Below are positions 5,840 through 29,767 of a DNA stretch of 29,767 bases, one piece after another (the stretch's first letter is position 1; the number at the start of each line of letters is the position of its first letter). Made by a program: the position numbers and the translations under genes. The DNA comes from a virus (taxonomy: Duplodnaviria; Heunggongvirae; Uroviricota; Caudoviricetes): IMG/VR virus record IMGVR_UViG_2917855067_000004, one strand, 5' to 3'. Under the pieces are notes generated by a model. That model searched no databases. It worked only from the letters and a program-made list of their open reading frames with translations, and was not told the DNA's origin.

Positions 5840-7018
5840 TTAGCTGTTGACCGATTCGGCCAGATTCACCAGATATTTATCGGTGATTCGCTGGCGCAGG
5901 GTCAGGCTTTCCAGTGGTGGAACCGGCGTATAGTCGTAGTCGATATACAGTTTCCCGGCCTTGAGGGTTTCCTTATCGTTCGATTCCTCGTCGAACCAGC
6001 ATTCACCGTCCACGATGTAGCCATTTGATTTCAGCTCGCGGAATTTGGCGTTAATGCCGTCGACAATGTCACGGATAAGCGATGCGGTGATGGGCTTATC
6101 GACCGCCCACATGTGCGCCTCTGCCATCGTGTCGGCCAGAACCTGCGCGGTGCGGGTGTAGTTCTCAAACAGGAAAAGCGGGTCATCAGAGCAGGTGCGG
6201 TTACCCCAGAAGCGGAAACCATCCTTGCGCACCAGCGTTGTGACCCCGGCCTCGTTGAGCAGGTCAGCATCGGTACCGGATGCCTGCAAATCCCAAAAGA
6301 CTGACGCACTGATGCCGGTGACACCCTGCACGCCGACGTTAGACAGGGTTTTGTGCCAGCCGACGGTTTGGTCGATGTAGGCACGCAGACCGAGTGCGCG
6401 AGCGGTGGCGTAGGCCGTTGCGGTGGCGTTCGCGGTGGTGTCCCATGCGAGGAAGTCAGGCCAGATAACCATCAGTTCGCGCTGACTGAAATTCTCGCGA
6501 TAGGCCATCGCTTCGGAAATGGTCTTACAGCCCCATGCGCTGACATAGCCAAACGCGCGCAGGTTGATACAGACCGAAGCAAGTGCGACTGCAACCTCTT
6601 TGGTATCGAGACCCGGTACGCCTAGAATGCGCGGCTTAACGCCGGTTACCGCTTCGGCAGTTAACAGCGCTTTTATACCGGTGTATTTACCGTTCTCATC
6701 CGTGCCGCCGATAATGTTAGAAATAGTCTGTGCTTCGGCGTCATCGCCAGAGCCTTCGGCAACGCGCACGACAACGGTGACAGGTTTTGACTGGTCGGCG
6801 ATGGCCTGCAGGGACGCGGCCAGCGTGCCTTTTTTTCCGGCTTTCGCAATGGCGCTCTGCACATTGGTAATCAGTACCGGCTCGTTGAGGGGAAAGGTTG
6901 CCGCATCCGCATCGCTGGCCGTGCAGACCATGCCGATGATTGCGGTTGCAACAGTGGATATGACGCGGGTGCCGTCGTTAATCTCAAGCACCTGCACGCC
7001 GTGGTGAAAATCACTCAT
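5840..7018 (-). CDS. FI: Contractile tail sheath protein FI
   Basis: 392 aa; size and position match P2 gpFI. Confidence 0.93.
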   Translation of the reverse strand: MSDFHHGVQVLEINDGTRVISTVATAIIGMVCTASDADAATFPLNEPVLITNVQSAIAKAGKKGTLAASLQAIADQSKPVTVVVRVAEGSGDDAEAQTISNIIGGTDENGKYTGIKALLTAEAVTGVKPRILGVPGLDTKEVAVALASVCINLRAFGYVSAWGCKTISEAMAYRENFSQRELMVIWPDFLAWDTTANATATAYATARALGLRAYIDQTVGWHKTLSNVGVQGVTGISASVFWDLQASGTDADLLNEAGVTTLVRKDGFRFWGNRTCSDDPLFLFENYTRTAQVLADTMAEAHMWAVDKPITASLIRDIVDGINAKFRELKSNGYIVDGECWFDEESNDKETLKAGKLYIDYDYTPVPPLESLTLRQRITDKYLVNLAESVNS

Positions 7019-20996: not shown

Positions 20997-21052
20997 GCCT
21001 CGCGGGGCGTCGTTGTTCAACCCCGTCAGCACTGAAAGCGAGTTTCAGCGCT
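20997..21052. repeat. Structured repeat element R1 (GC stem-loop plus 10-bp hairpin with GCGAG loop)
   Basis: GCCTCGCGGGGCGTCGTTGTTCAACCCCGTC then AGCACTGAAA-GCGAG-TTTCAGCGCT; homologous to R2 about 405 bp away. Confidence 0.5.
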
Positions 21053-21062
21053 GAGACGTTTG

Positions 21063-21272
21063 CTATCGTCGACGTGGTGGAGGTGCGTATTTTGTCGGTC
21101 TGCTGATGCTATCCAGCTTGCCGCAATTATCCCTGACTATTTCGGCACACCCGACCAGCTCGGTGGGTGTCAAATTCTCATTGACCATTATCTGCTGCAG
21201 GCGATGAACGATAGCCATTAACTTAATATTTCTGGTCTGGTGCTGCGGTATTTCACCTGGTAGTCGATGCAT
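21063..21272 (-). CDS. Hypothetical 69-aa protein
   Basis: ATG at 21270-21272 with a GAGGG Shine-Dalgarno 7 nt upstream; lies between R2 and R1; no family recognised. Confidence 0.45.
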   Translation of the reverse strand: MHRLPGEIPQHQTRNIKLMAIVHRLQQIMVNENLTPTELVGCAEIVRDNCGKLDSISRPTKYAPPPRRR

Positions 21273-21401
21273 ATTATCACCCTCAATGAATTTTAATCAG
21301 TGCCGTCAAAACGCCACTATAAAACCCTCTCAGGTCATGCCTCATTCATCACTGGCGTGTCATCAATAGCACATTGAGAAATTTTGAAAGGCAGGACTAA
21401 A

Positions 21402-21455
21402 GCCTCGTGGGCTCGTTACTCAACCCCGTCGACGCAAAAAGCTAGTTTTTGCGCC
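21402..21455. repeat. Structured repeat element R2 (homologue of R1; hairpin with GCTAG loop)
   Basis: GCCTCGTGGGCTCGTTACTCAACCCCGTC then GACGCAAAAA-GCTAG-TTTTTGCGCC; stem differs from R1 by base changes that preserve pairing. Confidence 0.5.
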
Positions 21456-21471
21456 AACACGGTTATCATGT

Positions 21472-21702
21472 TTAACGCCAGCTATCGTCTTCCCAAATCT
21501 CTTGTAATATGCCGCTTAATGTTTCTTTGTCTGCTTCTTTATCGAATCCGATAACCTCTACACCAGTCATTGACCCTTTCTTGACGTTAACTTTTATTGC
21601 AGGAAAAACGCATTGTACTCGATGTGTTATTTCATTCTGAAAAGCATCAATGATCTGTTGCCCTAATTTTTGTTCTTTATCCAACGTGATATTGATTCTC
21701 AT
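21472..21702 (-). CDS. DinI-family protein (likely the C-terminal part of a Tum-like SOS-inducible antirepressor)
   Basis: 76 aa MRINITLDKEQKLGQQIIDAFQNEITHRVQCVFPAIKVNVKKGSMTGVEVIGFDKEADKETLSGILQEIWEDDSWR resembles E. coli DinI (MRIEVTIAK...ILQETWE) from memory. Confidence 0.8.
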   Translation of the reverse strand: MRINITLDKEQKLGQQIIDAFQNEITHRVQCVFPAIKVNVKKGSMTGVEVIGFDKEADKETLSGILQEIWEDDSWR

Positions 21703-21705
21703 AAT

Positions 21706-21888
21706 CTAATCAGCCTTATAAAAATTATCATCTTCGGTTTCGTTATTCTCGCTGTTTGCTAGGTCTGCAATGAGAGTGAGCGCGAGCTTTAAGTCTGATG
21801 GCTTGCAGTTTGCAATCAGAGATACCTCGGCAATAAATTGCACACAAGCCCACTTTTGCTGCGTTCGGCTGAAATGTTCGTCAACCAT
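21706..21888 (-). CDS. Hypothetical 60-aa protein, first gene of the LexA-box operon (possible Tum N-terminal part)
   Basis: ATG at 21886-21888 with AGGAGG 6 nt upstream; ends at a TAG that is in frame with, and one codon before, the DinI-like ATG. Confidence 0.55.
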   Translation of the reverse strand: MVDEHFSRTQQKWACVQFIAEVSLIANCKPSDLKLALTLIADLANSENNETEDDNFYKAD

Positions 21889-21907
21889 GGAATCCCTCCT
21901 ACAGGGT

Positions 21908-21927
21908 TACTGTATGTTTATACAGTA
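21908..21927. promoter_or_regulatory. LexA operator (SOS box) upstream of the orf60/DinI-like operon
   Basis: TACTGTATGTTTATACAGTA: CTGT-N8-ACAG with palindromic flanks, about 20 nt upstream of the orf60 ribosome-binding site. Confidence 0.8.
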
Positions 21928-22001
21928 GCACGTATTGGTAAAAGATGGGAAGAAAAAAAACGAATAGGGCGATTGTCGTATGTACATGATATGGATATAA
22001 A

Positions 22002-24296
22002 TTACTCTGATATTGGTTTTGATGCTTCAGCTATCGCAGCAACACGATTAAGGATTTTTCTGGCTTTAGCCTCATGCGATGGTGCTGTGGAAAATATTTC
22101 TCCTTTGGCCGTTCCGCGTAGCCATTTACCATCAAAACAACTTTTACCACCGGCCATCAGGTGCAGAGCTTCGCCCCGGCTGATATTAATGCCGGTTGTC
22201 AAATGTATCTCTTCGATAGTTTTCGCTATAGCTGCGTTTTGCTCATCCGTTCCGTGGACGAATTTTCGCCGTGCTGCTGGCTTTTGCTTCCTGAGTCGGT
22301 TGGTCAACTCTCGTCTTTCACGCCGACTCAGTGGTTTTGTTAAATCCAGTATCGGTGGATCGCTTTCGCTTCCCGTACAGTTATTGACAGAACTCCGAGG
22401 GACGGCTTTGCCGTCCTGAAGGTCAACGGCCAAATCAACAGCATGCTTCGGAACAATCTTCCACTGAGTGAGTCGGGTTAATATCGGGCTCCCTGCACCT
22501 ATGGAGGAATCGTAGACCCCCTTAATACATACCGTTTCCTCACCGTACTGATTAAGCTCGGTACGCGGTTCATACAGTGTGCGCACCTGTAAATCATCGC
22601 GACGGACAAACGGTCCACCCTGCGCATTAACATACCCAGCCCAGTCACCAGCGTCGGCGGCATCATGGACGGCGGCAAACTCAACGCTCAGTCCGTGCGC
22701 GGTTTCGGTATCAGCGAGGCGACGCAACTCACGGTAAACCGTCACCGGCGCACCACCGATAAACTGAAACTGACGGATGTGCCAGCGCGAAGCCCATGCT
22801 GAAACGGCGGGGGCTGTCTCTTTCAGCAGTTCACCACTTTCATCATCGGTTTCACCATCGAGAGCATAACCGTCGATATTTTTTGAGATGTATTTAGCAA
22901 CATAGCCGGTTGCGCTGCCTTTCTCCGGGTCAATGGACTCGGCGTGGAAACGTGCTTTTTTGGATTTATCGCTTTTCAGTTCGTGGCGGTCTTCTTTCCA
23001 TGCGTATTTACGGACGATGGAGCGAACATATTCAACATCTTCCGGCAGCATGAACATCAGCATGTGCCAGTGTGGAGTGCCGTCGTGATGGGGCTCGGCG
23101 ACACGAATACCGAAAATACGGACATCTTCCCGATGTAGTTTGGCACGGATGCGCGCCCAGATACCGGTTAGATAGTTTTGCGTGTCAGCCGGGCTGGCAC
23201 CGCTCCATTTGCTGTTACGGTAACCGGCTTTAGTTGTGGCGTGATATTTTGACGGCGCGGTTAGAGTGTAAAACTCACCGACATAACCGAGCTCATTACA
23301 GATGTTTTCAAACCCACGAATGCGGGTCATGAGCTCACAGCGGCGAATCGCAGGGTTAGCAACTGAGCCATCATATTTTTCAATTAGGCTGATACGGTTG
23401 CCGTCTTCGTCTTCGAGATCCAGACCTTTGAGAAATTCACGAGTTCGGCGCTTTTGTTCACGCCAGTCAGTCACGCAGTTTTTACTCGCATAGGTGTTTT
23501 TTTTCTTGCTGACGTTGCCGACTGCAATTTGCAGGTGTTCGCGCCATGTAGCTGCAACCCGGCGCAAACGACCACGCCACCACCCATCGTTAAACATCTT
23601 GGCGATAGCCGGTGCGATTTCATCCGCTCCGACATATTTTTTTGCAACCCGATCCCAATGGGGTGGGATAACGTTGAACTGGAGGGAAATAAAGCCAGCA
23701 CGATTATACCAAGTGTACAGCGTTTTAAGCTCGCCGAATCCGTGGTCATTAATGCTGGCAAGTTCACCACGAATGAAATTAGCAATATCGGCGGCCAACA
23801 GGTCAACATCAGCGCGCGACATATCCGGGAGGCGGTTATATCGGGCGACCATATTAACCATGCGTGACGCCAGATATTGCATAAGCTGGGTATCAAAATG
23901 ACTTCCAAAAACAGAGGTTGATACCTTGCTGTTGATACCCGCGCATTCGTATTTTTTTGCGACCAATTCAAGACGCGGCAATGCCTTTTTGCAGAAGCTG
24001 ATCAAAAAGGCATTGGCTCGTTGAATGCCCTGATTTTGCTCCAGCACTGCCGCAGTGCGATAAACATCTAACCGCACGCAGTCGGGCTGGAGAGAAAGCA
24101 CCTTTTTCGCATGCAGCAAAGCCGCGAACATACGGTCGCGGCGATGCTGTTGCTCGTAAGTAAGGTATGGGCTGGCTATAGCCGACCGTGGAGCATTCCA
24201 CGGATAAGCAAAAGTAATATCTAATGCCCCTCCGTCATGTATCATCTGTCGACTTTCTTTTTGATTCCATAACATTGGTCGTGTAGCCTCCCACAA
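22002..24296 (-). CDS. A: Replication initiation protein A (rolling-circle nickase)
   Basis: 764 aa; size and position match P2 gpA; contains a His-hydrophobic-His motif (PHWHMLMF) and a YVAKY motif consistent with rolling-circle Rep proteins. Confidence 0.93.
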   Translation of the reverse strand: MWEATRPMLWNQKESRQMIHDGGALDITFAYPWNAPRSAIASPYLTYEQQHRRDRMFAALLHAKKVLSLQPDCVRLDVYRTAAVLEQNQGIQRANAFLISFCKKALPRLELVAKKYECAGINSKVSTSVFGSHFDTQLMQYLASRMVNMVARYNRLPDMSRADVDLLAADIANFIRGELASINDHGFGELKTLYTWYNRAGFISLQFNVIPPHWDRVAKKYVGADEIAPAIAKMFNDGWWRGRLRRVAATWREHLQIAVGNVSKKKNTYASKNCVTDWREQKRRTREFLKGLDLEDEDGNRISLIEKYDGSVANPAIRRCELMTRIRGFENICNELGYVGEFYTLTAPSKYHATTKAGYRNSKWSGASPADTQNYLTGIWARIRAKLHREDVRIFGIRVAEPHHDGTPHWHMLMFMLPEDVEYVRSIVRKYAWKEDRHELKSDKSKKARFHAESIDPEKGSATGYVAKYISKNIDGYALDGETDDESGELLKETAPAVSAWASRWHIRQFQFIGGAPVTVYRELRRLADTETAHGLSVEFAAVHDAADAGDWAGYVNAQGGPFVRRDDLQVRTLYEPRTELNQYGEETVCIKGVYDSSIGAGSPILTRLTQWKIVPKHAVDLAVDLQDGKAVPRSSVNNCTGSESDPPILDLTKPLSRRERRELTNRLRKQKPAARRKFVHGTDEQNAAIAKTIEEIHLTTGINISRGEALHLMAGGKSCFDGKWLRGTAKGEIFSTAPSHEAKARKILNRVAAIAEASKPISE

Positions 24297-26359: not shown

Positions 26360-26731
26360 TCAGTTAAGAGCGATGCGGTGGTCGATGTAGCGACAATCAA
26401 TCGCTTGCTGGGTTAGTTTGTCGCGCCATGCTTTCACGTTTACGAGGGTGCGGCTTCGTTTTCCAGCCTCTTCCTTGTTGGAAAAGTCTTTAGTTGGAGC
26501 TTTGAGGAGGATTCCCTCATCAAGCCATTGCCAGACCAGCCGCTCGCTTACACCGCGAGTGGCGGCAAAGTCTTTCACTGTCATTGTGTCTGACATAGCG
26601 GAGCGGATCATTGTCTGCAGAGCTGGCAGCATAGCGGTAACGATCGCATCAAACTGAGCCGGATCTAACAGCACAGTTTGATTTTGTGAGTTTTGCGAAT
26701 CATGCGTCGAGATTGATTTTGCATCTGACAT
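26360..26731 (-). CDS. apl: Apl/Cox-like excisionase and transcriptional regulator (start uncertain)
   Basis: Divergent from cI; HTH-like ...MTVKDFAATRGVSERLVWQWLDEGILLKAP...; the 123-aa ORF is longer than 186 Apl (87 aa), so an internal start is possible. Confidence 0.65.
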   Translation of the reverse strand: MSDAKSISTHDSQNSQNQTVLLDPAQFDAIVTAMLPALQTMIRSAMSDTMTVKDFAATRGVSERLVWQWLDEGILLKAPTKDFSNKEEAGKRSRTLVNVKAWRDKLTQQAIDCRYIDHRIALN

Positions 26732-26844: not shown

Positions 26845-27690
26845 ATGTCTAAAAATGATGTCAATGCGTCTGCCGCTTTAGAGCGAGTCCTTTCTGCATA
26901 CGGTTTTAAGCAGCAAAAAGAACTAGCTGAAAGGCTTGGTATTCATGCGAACAACGTAAGTAGTTGGCTTGCAAGAAACGTGATCCCAAGCAACGTTTTC
27001 GTTGAGTGCGCTCTTGATACAGGGGCTGACCTGCGATGGCTTGTTAATGGTGAACTTGCAAATACAAAATATGACGAGAGGCAAGTAAATCTCAAAGGTA
27101 AGCAACTCTATGATGAAATCATGGCTAATGGAGGAAGGGCGGTTCTGCGTCGTATTCTCGATGCGTATGGTTTTACTATGCAAAAAGAGTTGGGAGATTT
27201 ATTAGGCATATCCTCTGGTACTATAAGCACTTGGGTCAGACGCGATTTTTTCCCTGGTGATGTGGTTGTAACCTGCGCCCTCGATACAGGCGTATCGTTA
27301 GAATGGTTATCTACGGGAAAAGGCCAGATGCGTAACAGCAAGGATGGTGAGTCAGCTAATTCTTTAACGATTAGAAAATGCCGCCTTGAGGCAGGTGAAC
27401 TCAAGGATATCGGGCGTTGGACTCCTGATGTCTCTATGGTTCCGGCAAACACTGATGATTTAGTCTTTATTGATGGCGTGAGTGCATCTTGGCTTGTTGA
27501 TTGTTCTAACTCAAAGATAGGAAATGGTCGTTGGCTTATTGGTATTGATGGTGCGCTCGATATTTTTGACGTAATCAGATTGCCCGGAGGAAAGGTCAGG
27601 CTATCAAATAAGTCTGTTGAGTTTGAATGTAATCTTTCTGATATCACACCATCAGGTGCCGTTTTCTTTACTTTGGAAAAGCATGTTTAA
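26845..27690 (+). CDS. cI: CI immunity repressor (186 type) with tandemly duplicated N-terminal DNA-binding domain
   Basis: Start placed at ATG 26845 (MSKNDV...); two homologous ~65-aa segments (...LSAYGFKQQKELAERLGI...CALDTGADLRWLVNGE and ...LDAYGFTMQKELGDLLGI...CALDTGVSLEWLSTGKG) followed by a ~125-aa C-terminal domain. Confidence 0.75.
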   Translation: MSKNDVNASAALERVLSAYGFKQQKELAERLGIHANNVSSWLARNVIPSNVFVECALDTGADLRWLVNGELANTKYDERQVNLKGKQLYDEIMANGGRAVLRRILDAYGFTMQKELGDLLGISSGTISTWVRRDFFPGDVVVTCALDTGVSLEWLSTGKGQMRNSKDGESANSLTIRKCRLEAGELKDIGRWTPDVSMVPANTDDLVFIDGVSASWLVDCSNSKIGNGRWLIGIDGALDIFDVIRLPGGKVRLSNKSVEFECNLSDITPSGAVFFTLEKHV

Positions 27691-27699
27691 GGGGCAGTA

Positions 27700-27963
27700 A
27701 TGAAAAAGTTTTTATTTGGAATGGTCTGTATTGCACTTTCTTCCTCAACATTTGCTGCTGAAAAGTTCAAAGAGATTGATAGTAAATCTTTTGGTGGTAA
27801 ATGGCCGCTAACCTTTGAGCATGCAAAGGTATCTTGTGTAAATCGTCACTACGTTTTTGTTTATGATATTGATACTGATGAACGATATCCCCTAAGCGGT
27901 ATGGCTAAAAAACGCCGTCAAATCAGGAAAAATGGAAGGGCGAGATTTAAAAGAAGTGCTTAA
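27700..27963 (+). CDS. Small secreted protein (signal peptide; tentative YebY/DUF2511-like), between cI and int
   Basis: AAGGGG Shine-Dalgarno 5 nt before the ATG; MKKFLFGMVCIALSSSTFA signal peptide; mature part ...GGKWPLTFEHAKVSCVNRHYVFVYDIDTDERYPLSGMA... and a basic tail; AT-rich. Confidence 0.6.
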   Translation: MKKFLFGMVCIALSSSTFAAEKFKEIDSKSFGGKWPLTFEHAKVSCVNRHYVFVYDIDTDERYPLSGMAKKRRQIRKNGRARFKRSA

Positions 27964-28063: not shown

Positions 28064-29113
28064 ATGACAGTAAGTAAGCAAAAAAATGGTAAATGGTTAT
28101 GCGAGCTTTATCCAAATGGCCGGGAAGGACGGCGTATACGTCGTCAATTTAATACCAAAGGTGAGGCCGAGGCATTCGAATCATTTACCAAAAGCGAGAG
28201 TGAATATAAGCCGTGGCTCGGCAAGAAAGAAGACCGCCGACGCTTAAGTGAGATTATCCAGCTTTGGAACAATTTGCACGGTCAGGCGTTAGTCGCCAGT
28301 AAGTCGCGGTTGGCAAAGCTTCAAATCGTGTGTAATGGTTTAGGTGACCCTATCGCATCCCGCCTTACTGCTAAAGATTGGGCTCACTATCGTGATAAAC
28401 GGCTTCGTGGTGAAATAGATAATGGATATCACAAAGACCCTGCAAAATGGATCGCCAAACCGATAACCGTCAACCGTGAGCAGCAGTATTTAGAAGCTGT
28501 TTTCAATGAGCTAAAGCGGCTAGGGGAATGGACCCAACCTAACCCGCTTGATGGTATTCGTATATTTAAAGAAGCTGAGAAGGAAATGTCATGGCTGACG
28601 CTTGAACAAATCCCGCAGCTTTTATCGGCATGTCATCAGTATGGACATGAAGACCTTACGCAGATTGTCGAGGTTTGTTTGGCGACTGGTGCCCGATGGG
28701 GTGAGGCCGAACGAATAACCCGTCCTCAACTTTCGCCCTACAAACTTACTTTCACAAAAACTAAAGGCAAAAAAAATCGCACAGTCCCGATCCCAAAATG
28801 GCTTTACGAAAAGTTATCTACGCGTCAGGGGCGAATGTTTAAGCCTTGCTATCAGGAGTTCAAAAAAATGCTTTTGCTTACTGATATCGAGCTGACTGAA
28901 GGGCAGAAAACGCACGTTTTACGTCACACCTTTGGTGCGCATTTTATGATGAATGGCGGCAATATCCTTGTACTCCAGAAGATACTCGGTCACGCAAATA
29001 TTCGTGAAACAATGAAGTATGCGCACTTTGCTCCTGACCATCTTGAACAAGCTGTCACCTTAAATCCGTTGTCACTGTGTATTGGCGACAACGTGGCGGC
29101 AGAGGTTGCGTAA
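28064..29113 (+). CDS. int: Tyrosine integrase (P2 family)
   Basis: 349 aa; C-terminal catalytic region ...HVLRHTFGAHFMMNGGNILVLQKILGHANIRETMKYAHF (R/H-x-x-R...Y); adjacent to attR. Confidence 0.93.
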   Translation: MTVSKQKNGKWLCELYPNGREGRRIRRQFNTKGEAEAFESFTKSESEYKPWLGKKEDRRRLSEIIQLWNNLHGQALVASKSRLAKLQIVCNGLGDPIASRLTAKDWAHYRDKRLRGEIDNGYHKDPAKWIAKPITVNREQQYLEAVFNELKRLGEWTQPNPLDGIRIFKEAEKEMSWLTLEQIPQLLSACHQYGHEDLTQIVEVCLATGARWGEAERITRPQLSPYKLTFTKTKGKKNRTVPIPKWLYEKLSTRQGRMFKPCYQEFKKMLLLTDIELTEGQKTHVLRHTFGAHFMMNGGNILVLQKILGHANIRETMKYAHFAPDHLEQAVTLNPLSLCIGDNVAAEVA

Positions 29114-29194
29114 CGCTGCAATTCACTGCATTAAAAATTGCATTAACTAATTGTTTTATATGGTAAGTGTTTGTTTGTTATGGGGTGTTAATAG

Positions 29195-29207
29195 GAGCGT
29201 CTTAACT
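29195..29207. other. attR core (13-nt identity with attL)
   Basis: GAGCGTCTTAACT followed by AAG, which would restore a native ...AAC TAA rplS ending in the uninterrupted host site. Confidence 0.55.
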
Positions 29208-29239
29208 AAGATTTCGCTTAAGCGACATCCTGTTAAGAA

Positions 29240-29268
29240 GGGCTGGCCAATTGGCTGGCCCTTTTTTT
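29240..29268. terminator. Host bidirectional intrinsic terminator between rplS (native position) and yfiB
   Basis: GGGCTGGCC-AATT-GGCCAGCCC perfect stem followed by T7 on the plus strand. Confidence 0.6.
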
Positions 29269-29285
29269 ATTTATTGAAATTGCGT

Positions 29286-29767
29286 TTACGGTGCACTAAT
29301 CACCACAGCGACGCGGCGGTTCTCGGCGCGACCCTGTGCGGTCTTGTTACTGGCGATGGGGTATTTTTTCCCTAAGCCTGAGTGGTGAGATTGCTGCGAG
29401 GAATTTGTCCACCTTCTGCCCACGCATCGGCGACGACATTTGCCCGCTTCAGCGATAAAGCTTCGTTGTAACTGTCTTCGCCGTAATTGTCGGTATGTCC
29501 ATCCATACGGGCATGGGTTAAGCCCGTGGAGGTCAGTTTTGCGGCCATGGTCTGGATCTGTTGCTGACTTTCCGGGAGCAGTTTGTAGTCATTTTTAGCA
29601 AACAGAATGGTATCAGATAAGCCCAGCGACCAGTCGCCAGCGGATTCAGTAAAACCATAAGACTGCATAGCGGCGACTTGTTCTGGAGTAAACTTCCCTT
29701 GTGGTGACTGGCAGCCAGTCAGTATCAGTGAAGAGAACACCAGGGGAACTACCAGTTGCTTTATCAT
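29286..29767 (-). pseudogene. yfiB: OmpA-family lipoprotein YfiB, disrupted by a 1-nt deletion (or homopolymer sequencing error) near 29376-29378
   Basis: ORF 29372-29767 gives MIKQLVVPLVFSSLILTGCQSPQGKF...SNLTTQA then stop; shifting one base continues GLGKKYPIASNKTAQGRAENRRVAVVISAP to a TAA at 29286-29288, matching the expected OmpA-like C-terminus. Confidence 0.75.

What the first reader, a model, noticed from the sequence alone, without database searches (positions are those of the whole stretch)
21472..21927. SOS-controlled Tum-like antirepressor module split by an in-frame TAG
A near-consensus LexA box overlaps the putative promoter of a two-ORF operon: a 60-aa ORF, then TAG, one codon, and the ATG of a DinI-like 76-aa ORF, all in the same frame. 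In phage 186, prophage induction runs through a LexA-repressed antirepressor, Tum; my recollection that Tum carries a DinI-like C-terminal part is not verified. The in-frame TAG suggests either an ancestral single gene now split by a nonsense mutation, amber read-through, or two products. The DinI-like ORF has only a weak ribosome-binding site of its own.
Basis: partly seen in the sequence, partly recalled or inferred. Interest (0 to 1): 0.55.

Follow-up and report, generated by a model that had tools for sequence, protein, structure and literature searches.

The report
Known tumA/tumB SOS prophage-induction operon
This is the already described LexA-controlled tumA/tumB operon of a PSP3/186-like prophage, a small antirepressor gene followed by a DinI-like gene; the in-frame TAG is an ordinary gene boundary, not a broken gene or a recoding signal.

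Summary
On the minus strand there is a LexA box (21908-21927, 2 mismatches to consensus, the only one in the window). It is followed by a 60-aa ORF (21706-21888), TAG, one codon, and the ATG of a 76-aa DinI-family ORF (21472-21702).

The arrangement is already known. GenBank AY135486 (phage PSP3) annotates the same pair as tumA and tumB. Lemire et al. [quoted passage not shown] They report that the upstream PSP3 gene carries the antirepressor activity.

My survey shows TumA is a stable stand-alone family of about 60 aa (207 clusters, no fused member). A LexA box lies upstream in all 28 species-level genomes examined. The stop codon varies (TAG, TAA, TGA). The DinI gene is absent, out of frame or in frame depending on lineage. 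The tumB start aligns with the internal start of 186 Tum95.5.

The best reading is two genes and two products, with tumB probably translated by termination-reinitiation coupling. A recent nonsense mutation is contradicted by the survey, and conserved amber read-through finds no support. Novelty: already known. Interest: low.

The parts
21946..21951 (-). -35 hexamer TTCCCA of the p95-like SOS promoter
   Evidence: Aligns without gaps to the annotated -35 (TTCACA) of 186 p95. Inferred by homology; the consensus scan did not call it.
21908..21927 (-). LexA box TACTGTATAAACATACAGTA. Its first six bases (21922-21927, TACTGT) are the -10 of the p95-like promoter.
   Evidence: It has 2 mismatches to consensus, is unique in the window, and 0 of 100 shuffles matched. 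It is homologous to the annotated LexA site of 186. A LexA box lies 35-46 nt upstream of tumA in all 28 genome loci.
21895..21899 (-). Shine-Dalgarno GGAGG of tumA, 6 nt before the ATG
   Evidence: Read directly from the sequence.
21706..21888 (-). tumA: 60-aa antirepressor homologue (stop TAG at 21706-21708)
   Evidence: It is 97-98% identical to PSP3 TumA and the 613R3 'UV induction of prophage' protein. It matches phrog_1993. It is similar to 186 Tum residues 14-52 at about 9 sd above shuffles. The family has 207 clusters, typically of 60-61 aa. It is predicted to be a two-helix hairpin with a disordered acidic tail, mean pLDDT 68.
21700..21708 (-). Junction TAG-ATT-ATG: tumA stop, one codon, tumB start, all in one frame
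   Evidence: The same junction occurs in PSP3, 613R3, 4 genome loci and 60 IMG/VR contigs. The ATG aligns with the GTG start of 186 Tum95.5.
21472..21702 (-). tumB: 76-aa DinI-like protein
   Evidence: Pfam DinI at 1.4e-18. It matches E. coli DinI 1GHH over its full length at 6e-9. It is 66% identical to 186 Tum residues 71-146. It is below the NCBIfam equivalog cutoff for chromosomal DinI.
21422..21464 (-). Long stem-loop directly 3' of tumB without a U-tract, at the position of 186 terminator t95a. Its role is inferred (3' end or partial terminator).
   Evidence: Fold. An equivalent hairpin with a different stem sequence lies behind both tumB types in 63 loci. 186 has a canonical terminator at this position.
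26845..27690 (+). cI: 186/PSP3-type immunity repressor, the inferred target of TumA
   Evidence: It has 2x Phage_CI_repr HTH plus Phage_CI_C and no hit to any peptidase or autocleavage family. It matches 186 CI 2FJR at 6.6e-21 and is 72% identical to PSP3 CI.

Best explanation
This is the tumA-tumB SOS operon of a PSP3/186-like (Peduoviridae, Eganvirus-type) prophage. It sits directly downstream of replication gene A.

In uninduced lysogens, host LexA binds the box that overlaps the -10 of a p95-type promoter and keeps the operon off. DNA damage leads to LexA self-cleavage and transcription of the operon.

TumA is a 60-aa protein predicted to be a two-helix hairpin. It acts as the antirepressor: it binds the phage's non-cleavable 186-type CI repressor and stops it binding its operators, so the lytic promoter fires.

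TumB is a DinI-like protein made from the same mRNA. It probably acts on RecA filaments to tune the SOS and induction signal, like the truncated Tum95.5 product of 186.

tumB has only a weak, distant Shine-Dalgarno element, and its ATG lies 3 nt after the tumA stop. It is therefore most likely translated by ribosomes that terminate at TAG and reinitiate (translational coupling).

The TAG is an ordinary gene boundary. The single 146-aa Tum of 186 is more likely a fusion of such a gene pair that kept the internal start.

Shown here: the sequence anatomy, the homologies, and the conservation of the LexA box and of the stand-alone TumA.
Taken from the literature: the antirepressor activity of 186 Tum and of PSP3 TumA.
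Inferred: translational coupling, the role of TumB, and the direction of the fusion.
For: - Anatomy.
- Same gene pair annotated elsewhere: tumA and tumB in PSP3, and 'UV induction of prophage' plus DinI in 613R3.
- 186 reference: the record annotates p95, the LexA site, Tum and the internal-start products Tum95.2, 95.4 and 95.5. The window's promoter and box align to it without gaps.
- Literature: Lemire et al. [quoted passage not shown] They cite Bunny et al. 2002 and a personal communication from G. E. Christie. Murchland et al. 2020 (PMC7708051) use p95-tum as a UV-inducible anti-CI module.
- Homology: TumA versus the Tum N-terminal region scores 60 against 21.9 +/- 4.0 in shuffles. TumB is 66% identical to the Tum C-terminal part.
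- Stable two-gene state: nearly all of the 120 listed of 207 TumA clusters are about 60 aa, and none carries a DinI domain. Searching with the artificial read-through fusion finds only 186-type 146-aa Tum at 44-52% identity.
- LexA box: present upstream of tumA in 28 of 28 species-level genome loci.
- Target: CI has 186-type CI domains and no match to any protease or autocleavage family.
- tumB start: equals the 186 Tum95.5 start, which keeps a strong AAGGAGG Shine-Dalgarno.
- Prevalence: the locus is present in 80 of 5426 complete E. coli genomes, annotated as 'hypothetical protein' plus 'DinI-like family protein'.
Against: - No experiment on this particular TumA is available. The PSP3 antirepressor assignment reaches the literature only as a personal communication.
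- BLASTP alone finds no TumA-to-Tum alignment. The homology rests on Smith-Waterman with a shuffle test, on a tblastn alignment that runs across the stop, and on synteny.
- The promoter is weak by consensus and was not called by the scan.
- Translational coupling is inferred only from the spacing. The local mRNA fold that pairs the tumB AUG is not better than shuffles (z = -1.2).
- The TumA structure model has only moderate confidence (pLDDT 68).
Confidence: 0.85

Rival explanations
1. A single ancestral tum gene was recently inactivated or split by a nonsense mutation in this prophage, so the module is a decaying pseudogene.
For: The two ORFs are in the same frame and collinear with the single 146-aa Tum of 186.
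Against: The identical junction is found in PSP3, 613R3, four species-level genomes and 60 IMG/VR contigs. TumA is about 60 aa in nearly all listed clusters down to 70% identity, with a near-invariant core, which indicates purifying selection. No fused PSP3-type protein exists in the collection. Both ORFs are intact with their own start codons.
Confidence: 0.02
2. Programmed amber read-through: a fraction of ribosomes read TAG as sense and make a 138-aa TumA-TumB fusion equivalent to full-length 186 Tum, and this fusion is functionally required.
For: The arrangement is in frame, with only one codon between stop and start. TAG is invariant in all 60 IMG/VR contigs and 7 other close loci although the flanking codons vary. 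186 makes both a fused product and a separate DinI-like product.
Against: Among more distant homologues the stop is TAA or TGA, and the DinI gene is out of frame or absent. Examples: L024 TAGATATG; L028 TAA + 13 nt; Fels-2 TGA + 10 nt; ST437phi4.1 TAA + 11 nt. The DinI gene is absent in 19 of 28 genomes. In the close clade only 7 of 15 comparable A/G two-fold sites are polymorphic, so an unchanged TAG is expected about half the time by chance. No significant RNA structure lies at the junction. An in-frame arrangement has a prior chance of 1 in 3.
Confidence: 0.05
3. Opposite evolutionary direction: the fused 186-type Tum is ancestral, and the PSP3-type pair arose from an ancient split that is now fixed as two functional genes.
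For: Collinearity and a shared frame with 186 Tum, with the start of tumB at exactly the Tum95.5 internal start.
Against: Stand-alone N-domain genes without any DinI partner occur in both subfamilies: 19 of 28 TumA loci, and ENT90 for the 186 type. DinI genes sit behind tumA in all three frames and with different spacers. 186 retains a full Shine-Dalgarno plus GTG inside its ORF, as expected of a fused former gene start. None of this is a rooted phylogeny, so the direction remains an inference.
Confidence: 0.2

Closest known systems
tumA/tumB of Salmonella phage PSP3 (GenBank AY135486; Eganvirus PsP3)
   Same: Same position after gene A. Same LexA box and promoter. TumA is 97% identical. The TAG-ATT-ATG junction is identical. 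A DinI-like gene follows, then an orf37-like gene.
   Different: The window's tumB is the 186-like 76-aa type (66% identical to the 186 Tum C-terminal part) rather than PSP3's 77-aa type. This indicates a mosaic joined at the conserved start of tumB, and both types occur behind the same tumA in IMG/VR contigs. CI is 72% identical to PSP3 CI.
Tum antirepressor of coliphage 186 (p95 SOS operon; Lamont 1989, Brumby 1996, Shearwin 1998, as cited in PMC3121763 and PMC7708051)
   Same: LexA-repressed promoter of the same architecture. The N-terminal antirepressor region is homologous. The DinI-like C-terminal part is 66% identical. A separate DinI-like product starts at the same codon (Tum95.5).
   Different: 186 has one 146-aa ORF with a longer linker and internal starts, where the window has two ORFs. 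186 CI has a single HTH domain, the window's CI has two. 186 has a canonical terminator t95a and orf97 downstream. The window has a U-less hairpin and an unrelated 69-aa ORF.
Fels-2 STM2728 / STM2726.1 (Salmonella LT2) and related Klebsiella prophages
   Same: LexA box, then a ~62-aa Tum-N-like protein with the same conserved pattern (a hydrophobic helix, a Cys, then an L-A-L-x-hydrophobic-hydrophobic motif), then a DinI-like gene.
   Different: The genes are in different frames, separated by TGA plus 10 nt with their own GGTGA ribosome-binding site. The N-domain sequence is a third, divergent type.
Gifsy-1/2/3 LexA-controlled dinI-antirepressor operons (GfoA, GftA, GfhA; Lemire et al. 2011)
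   Same: A LexA-controlled operon that combines a DinI homologue with a small antirepressor acting on a non-cleavable repressor.
   Different: The gene order is reversed (dinI first). The antirepressors and repressors are unrelated in sequence, and the phages are lambdoid.

Membership tests
Tum/TumA LexA-controlled antirepressor of 186/PSP3-like phages | Gene lies immediately downstream of replication gene A in a P2/186-like genome | tested here: met
   gpA (Pfam Phage_GPA, 5e-131) is at 22002-24296(-), directly upstream. The order is the same in PSP3, 186, 613R3 and Fels-2.
Tum/TumA LexA-controlled antirepressor of 186/PSP3-like phages | LexA operator overlapping the promoter | tested here: met
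   The box at 21908-21927 has 2 mismatches and is unique in the window. It aligns to the annotated LexA site and p95 of 186. It is conserved in 28 of 28 genome loci. Actual LexA binding was not tested.
Tum/TumA LexA-controlled antirepressor of 186/PSP3-like phages | Sequence homology to PSP3 TumA and to the N-terminal region of 186 Tum | tested here: met
   97% identical to PSP3 TumA. Smith-Waterman score 60 against shuffles at 21.9 +/- 4.0 for 186 Tum residues 1-70. BLASTP alone found nothing.
Tum/TumA LexA-controlled antirepressor of 186/PSP3-like phages | Cognate 186-type CI repressor that lacks a self-cleavage domain | tested here: met
   CI has Phage_CI_repr x2 plus Phage_CI_C and no match to any peptidase or autocleavage family. 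It matches the 186 CI structure 2FJR.
Tum/TumA LexA-controlled antirepressor of 186/PSP3-like phages | Protein binds CI, blocks operator binding, and is required for UV induction | not testable with these tools
   Known for 186 Tum (Shearwin 1998) and stated for PSP3 TumA by personal communication (both via PMC3121763).
DinI family (RecA-filament-binding SOS modulator) | Matches the Pfam DinI model above the gathering score, over the full domain | tested here: met
   67.4 bits against a cutoff of 24.2, covering profile positions 2-62 of 63.
DinI family (RecA-filament-binding SOS modulator) | Full-length similarity to the solved E. coli DinI, including the acidic C-terminal helix | tested here: met
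   1GHH at E=6e-9, residues 1-75 against 1-77. ILQEIWEDDSW aligns to ILQETWESADDW.
DinI family (RecA-filament-binding SOS modulator) | Equivalog of chromosomal DinI (NCBIfam NF007893 cutoff) | tested here: not met
   56.6 bits against a cutoff of 111. It is a phage DinI-like paralogue, not the host DinI equivalog.
DinI family (RecA-filament-binding SOS modulator) | Binds RecA filaments and modulates SOS | not testable with these tools
The 186 record says the truncated Tum products 'modulate SOS induction'.
Programmed stop-codon read-through | Stop-codon identity and in-frame downstream ORF conserved across diverged homologues | tested here: not met
   TAG, TAA and TGA all occur. The DinI gene is out of frame in L024, L028, Fels-2 and ST437phi4.1, and absent in 19 of 28 loci. 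TAG invariance in the close clade is not significant.
Programmed stop-codon read-through | Stimulatory RNA structure or context at the stop | tested here: inconclusive
   The local fold is -12 kcal/mol with z = -1.2. No recognised signal was found. Context rules were not evaluated quantitatively.
Nonsense-split pseudogene | Close relatives carry an uninterrupted ORF | tested here: not met
   No fused PSP3-type protein was found among the hits. All 60 IMG/VR junctions carry the stop.

The most novel reading that the evidence does not exclude
Low-level read-through of the tumA TAG, or high-level read-through in supE-type hosts, yields a TumA-TumB fusion that mimics full-length 186 Tum. PSP3-type phages would then make the same three kinds of product as 186 (antirepressor, DinI-like protein, fusion) by a different mechanism, with the fusion tethering CI inactivation to RecA filaments. 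My data do not exclude this for the close clade, where TAG is invariant in 67 of 67 loci. They do show that it is not conserved in the wider family and that the invariance is not statistically meaningful.
Probability: 0.05. Interest if true: 0.4.

Novelty: already known. Interest (0 to 1): 0.1.

Why it matters
It matters little as a discovery. The split tum arrangement has been in GenBank since the PSP3 genome record (tumA and tumB) and is discussed in Lemire et al. 2011 and Bunny et al. 2002.

It is useful for annotation. TumA is labelled 'hypothetical protein' by PGAP and 'unknown function' in PHROGs (phrog_1993), and it has no Pfam or NCBIfam model. Prophages of this type are therefore not recognised as SOS-inducible through an antirepressor.

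The survey adds modest comparative points. The roughly 60-aa N-domain with its LexA box is the constant unit. The DinI module is optional and is attached in every possible way. This supports the view that 186 Tum is a gene fusion.

Tried and rejected
- BLASTP of TumA against 186 Tum gave no alignment. I replaced it with Smith-Waterman and a shuffle test.
- The generic promoter and terminator scan called neither the p95-like promoter nor a terminator after tumB. It gave only one internal promoter-like site and one plus-strand terminator-like site, both within chance expectation.
- A profile search of TumA against PDB sequences found nothing. Pfam and NCBIfam have no TumA family.
- Rfam found nothing credible in 21000-22050.
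- Bunny et al. 2002 (PMC151935) is not held in the library, so it is cited only through Lemire et al. 2011.
- The Eganvirus comparative paper PMC11126057 and the P2-like regulatory-gene paper PMC3448106 do not discuss tum.
- I considered whether invariant TAG in the close clade signals selection. I rejected this after counting polymorphism at comparable two-fold sites (7 of 15).
- I considered L004 (Escherichia sp. E1V33, tumA and tumB 100% identical) as the source of the window. I rejected this because its CI is only 67% identical.
- I did not run a fold search on the TumA model. A 60-residue two-helix hairpin at pLDDT 68 would give uninformative matches.

Full report
**1. What is in the sequence**

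All features are on the minus strand, directly downstream of the 764-aa replication protein gene A (22002-24296; Pfam Phage_GPA, 5e-131). The order reads as follows.

- -35 hexamer TTCCCA at 21946-21951, followed by an 18-nt spacer.
- TACTGT at 21922-21927. This is both the -10 hexamer and the first six bases of a LexA box, TACTGTATAAACATACAGTA (21908-21927).
- GGAGG at 21895-21899.
- ATG at 21886-21888, opening a 60-codon ORF that ends in TAG at 21706-21708.
- One codon, ATT.
- ATG at 21700-21702, opening a 76-codon ORF that ends at 21472.

The LexA box has 2 mismatches to the 20-mer consensus. It is the only match within 3 mismatches in the 29.8-kb window, and none of 100 shuffles produced one. 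The 76-aa ORF is a clear DinI-family protein: Pfam at 1.4e-18 and E. coli DinI 1GHH at 6e-9 over its full length. Its only Shine-Dalgarno-like element is AAGG, 11 nt upstream of the ATG.

**2. What it is**

The window is a PSP3/186-like (Peduoviridae) prophage. It carries a 186-type cI, a cII (CP76) and an integrase, and it ends in an OmpA-family host gene.

The 60-aa ORF is 97-98% identical to TumA of phage PSP3 and to the 'UV induction of prophage' protein of phage vB_EcoM-613R3. GenBank AY135486 annotates the same pair as follows:
- tumA: 'similar to 5' end 186 tum; UV induction of prophage'
- tumB: 'similar to dinI and 3' end of 186 tum'

The TAG-ATT-ATG junction in PSP3 is identical to the window's.

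The phage 186 record annotates promoter p95, a LexA site, the 146-aa Tum ('expression repressed by LexA; inhibits CI DNA binding') and three internal-start products. One of these is Tum95.5, a 76-aa product with a GTG start that 'modulates SOS induction'. The window's promoter and box region aligns to 186 p95 without gaps.

TumB is 66% identical to Tum residues 71-146. TumA aligns to Tum residues 14-52 with a Smith-Waterman score of 60. Shuffles gave 21.9 +/- 4.0, with a maximum of 44 in 2000. BLASTP alone misses this similarity.

**3. It is already described**

Lemire et al. 2011 (PMC3121763) make four relevant statements:
[quoted passage not shown] E. Christie).

Murchland et al. 2020 (PMC7708051) use p95-tum as a UV-responsive anti-CI module. 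Bunny et al. itself is not held in the library.

**4. Is the TAG a lesion, a recoding site or a gene boundary?**

*Protein survey.* A search with TumA returned 207 clusters across Escherichia, Salmonella, Klebsiella, Citrobacter, Cronobacter, Kosakonia, Yokenella, Pluralibacter and others. Nearly all of the 120 listed are 56-66 aa (mostly 60-61), down to 70% identity, and none has a DinI domain. The 75-93 aa entries inspected are ORF-calling extensions upstream through the LexA box; a few 63-66 aa ones have slightly longer C-termini. The core KWACVQFIAEVSLIANCKPSDLKLALxLIADLA is nearly invariant.

A search with the artificial read-through fusion found only separate TumA or TumB proteins, plus 186-type 146-aa Tum at 44-52% identity. 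No fused PSP3-type protein exists in that collection.

*Genome survey.* In 28 species-representative genome loci, every tumA has a LexA box 35-46 nt upstream. The stop codon is TAG, TAA or TGA. A DinI-like gene follows directly in only 9 of the 28 loci. The arrangements fall into these classes:
- In frame behind TAG plus one codon: a close clade only (L004-L007; also the window, PSP3 and 613R3).
- In frame behind TAA: L013, where tumB is itself disrupted.
- Out of frame: L024 (TAGATATG) and L028 (TAA + 13 nt).
- Fels-2: TGA + 10 nt with its own GGTGA ribosome-binding site, in a different frame.
- Klebsiella phage ST437-OXA245phi4.1: TAA + 11 nt.
- Erwinia phage ENT90: a 186-type N-domain gene with no DinI partner.

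*Close clade.* All 60 IMG/VR contigs that match the junction flanks carry TAG. The neighbouring codons vary: GAT or GAA before it, and ATT, GTT, TTT or ATC after it. Only 7 of 15 comparable A/G two-fold sites in the same sequences are polymorphic. An unchanged TAG is therefore expected about half the time.

*Conclusion.* The pair is a stable two-gene operon, not a fresh nonsense mutation. There is no comparative support for conserved amber read-through. An in-frame arrangement has a 1-in-3 chance anyway.

**5. Relationship to 186 Tum**

The tumB ATG aligns codon for codon with the GTG start of Tum95.5. In 186 that start is preceded by a strong AAGGAGG inside the tum ORF.

Three observations favour the fusion view of Lemire et al., in which 186 Tum is a fusion that kept the former tumB start:
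- Stand-alone N-domain genes occur in both subfamilies.
- DinI genes are attached in all three frames.
- 186 retains the internal ribosome-binding site and start.

This direction is an inference. No rooted phylogeny was made, and I give the opposite direction about 0.2.

**6. How it most likely works**

- *Shown.* The anatomy, the homologies, the conservation of the LexA box, and a CI of the 186 type. CI has two Phage_CI_repr HTH domains plus Phage_CI_C, no match to any protease family, and a match to 2FJR.
- *From the literature.* LexA represses p95. DNA damage de-represses it. Tum or TumA binds CI and prevents operator binding.
- *Inferred.* TumA is modelled as a two-helix hairpin with a disordered acidic tail (pLDDT 68). 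TumB is translated by termination-reinitiation, because its ATG is 3 nt after the TAG and its Shine-Dalgarno is weak and distant. A local stem pairs the AUG with the end of tumA, but it is not better than shuffles (z = -1.2). TumB modulates RecA filaments and the SOS signal, by analogy with DinI and Tum95.5.

**7. Prevalence**

The locus occurs in 80 of 5426 complete E. coli genomes. In 27 of them the match covers at least 80% of the query. PGAP labels it 'hypothetical protein' plus 'DinI-like family protein'.

**8. Verdict**

This is a known feature of a known phage group, so interest is low. The residual novel possibility is a functional low-level read-through fusion in the close clade. I rate it at about 5%.

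Noticed in passing
window 26845-27690 (+): The CI repressor has two tandem Phage_CI_repr HTH domains plus the 186-type C-terminal domain. 186 CI (2FJR) aligns only to residues 100-273. In 18 CI homologues that sit next to a tumA gene, the second HTH (residues 101-160) is about 90% conserved per column, whereas HTH1 and the C-domain are 50-70% conserved. TumA's near-invariant core might therefore target HTH2, with HTH1 setting immunity specificity.
   Followed up: partly
L004 (Escherichia sp. E1V33, NZ_RHJI01000004.1) versus window 21472-21888 and 26845-27690: tumA and tumB are 100% identical to the window, but the neighbouring CI is only 67% identical. In general TumA is more conserved than CI across loci. 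This hints that one TumA type can act on several immunity types, giving cross-induction between prophages.
   Followed up: partly
window 21422-21464 (-): A long stem-loop (14-19 bp, loop CUNGC) lies directly after tumB, with no U-tract, at the position where 186 has terminator t95a. Loci with the 77-aa tumB type have a different stem sequence that folds the same way, and a few have the canonical 186 terminator. There is no Rfam match. Its function is unknown: partial terminator, 3'-end stabiliser or processing site.
   Followed up: partly
window 21472-21702 (-) and L036-L095: Two tumB types follow the same tumA and junction: a PSP3-like 77-aa type and a 186-like 76-aa type. The window and 613R3 carry the 186-like type. 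This implies recombination at the conserved first ~35 nt of tumB (ATGAGAATCAATATCACGTTGGATAAAGAACAAAA).
   Followed up: partly
proteins P0001, P0002, P0011, P0020, P0030, P0061, P0062, P0083: Gene callers often extend TumA upstream through the LexA box, giving 75-93-aa artefacts that contain 'LLYKYTV', the translation of the box. TumA itself has no Pfam or NCBIfam model and is 'unknown function' in PHROGs (phrog_1993).
   Followed up: yes
window 27700-27963 (+): A small signal-peptide-bearing DUF2511 protein is encoded between cI and int. It is a possible lysogenic-conversion 'moron'.
   Followed up: no
window 26360-26731 (-): A 123-aa protein sits at the Apl/Cox position (phrog_3554, with only a weak Cox-like match at 1.6e-4). 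This matches the published remark that the PSP3 Apl/Cox analogue is a singleton without recognisable domains (PMC3448106).
   Followed up: no
window 29151-29767: The window ends in an OmpA-family lipoprotein gene (29372-29767, minus strand; YfiB-like from memory) just beyond the integrase (28064-29113). This is presumably host flank, with the attachment site in between. ARAGORN finds no tRNA gene anywhere in the window.
   Followed up: no
L013 (MAG Atlantibacter sp.) 6501-6920: This locus has an in-frame TAA-GCG-ATG junction, but the tumB behind it matches DinI in two pieces in different frames. It is an apparently decaying tumB behind an intact tumA.
   Followed up: no
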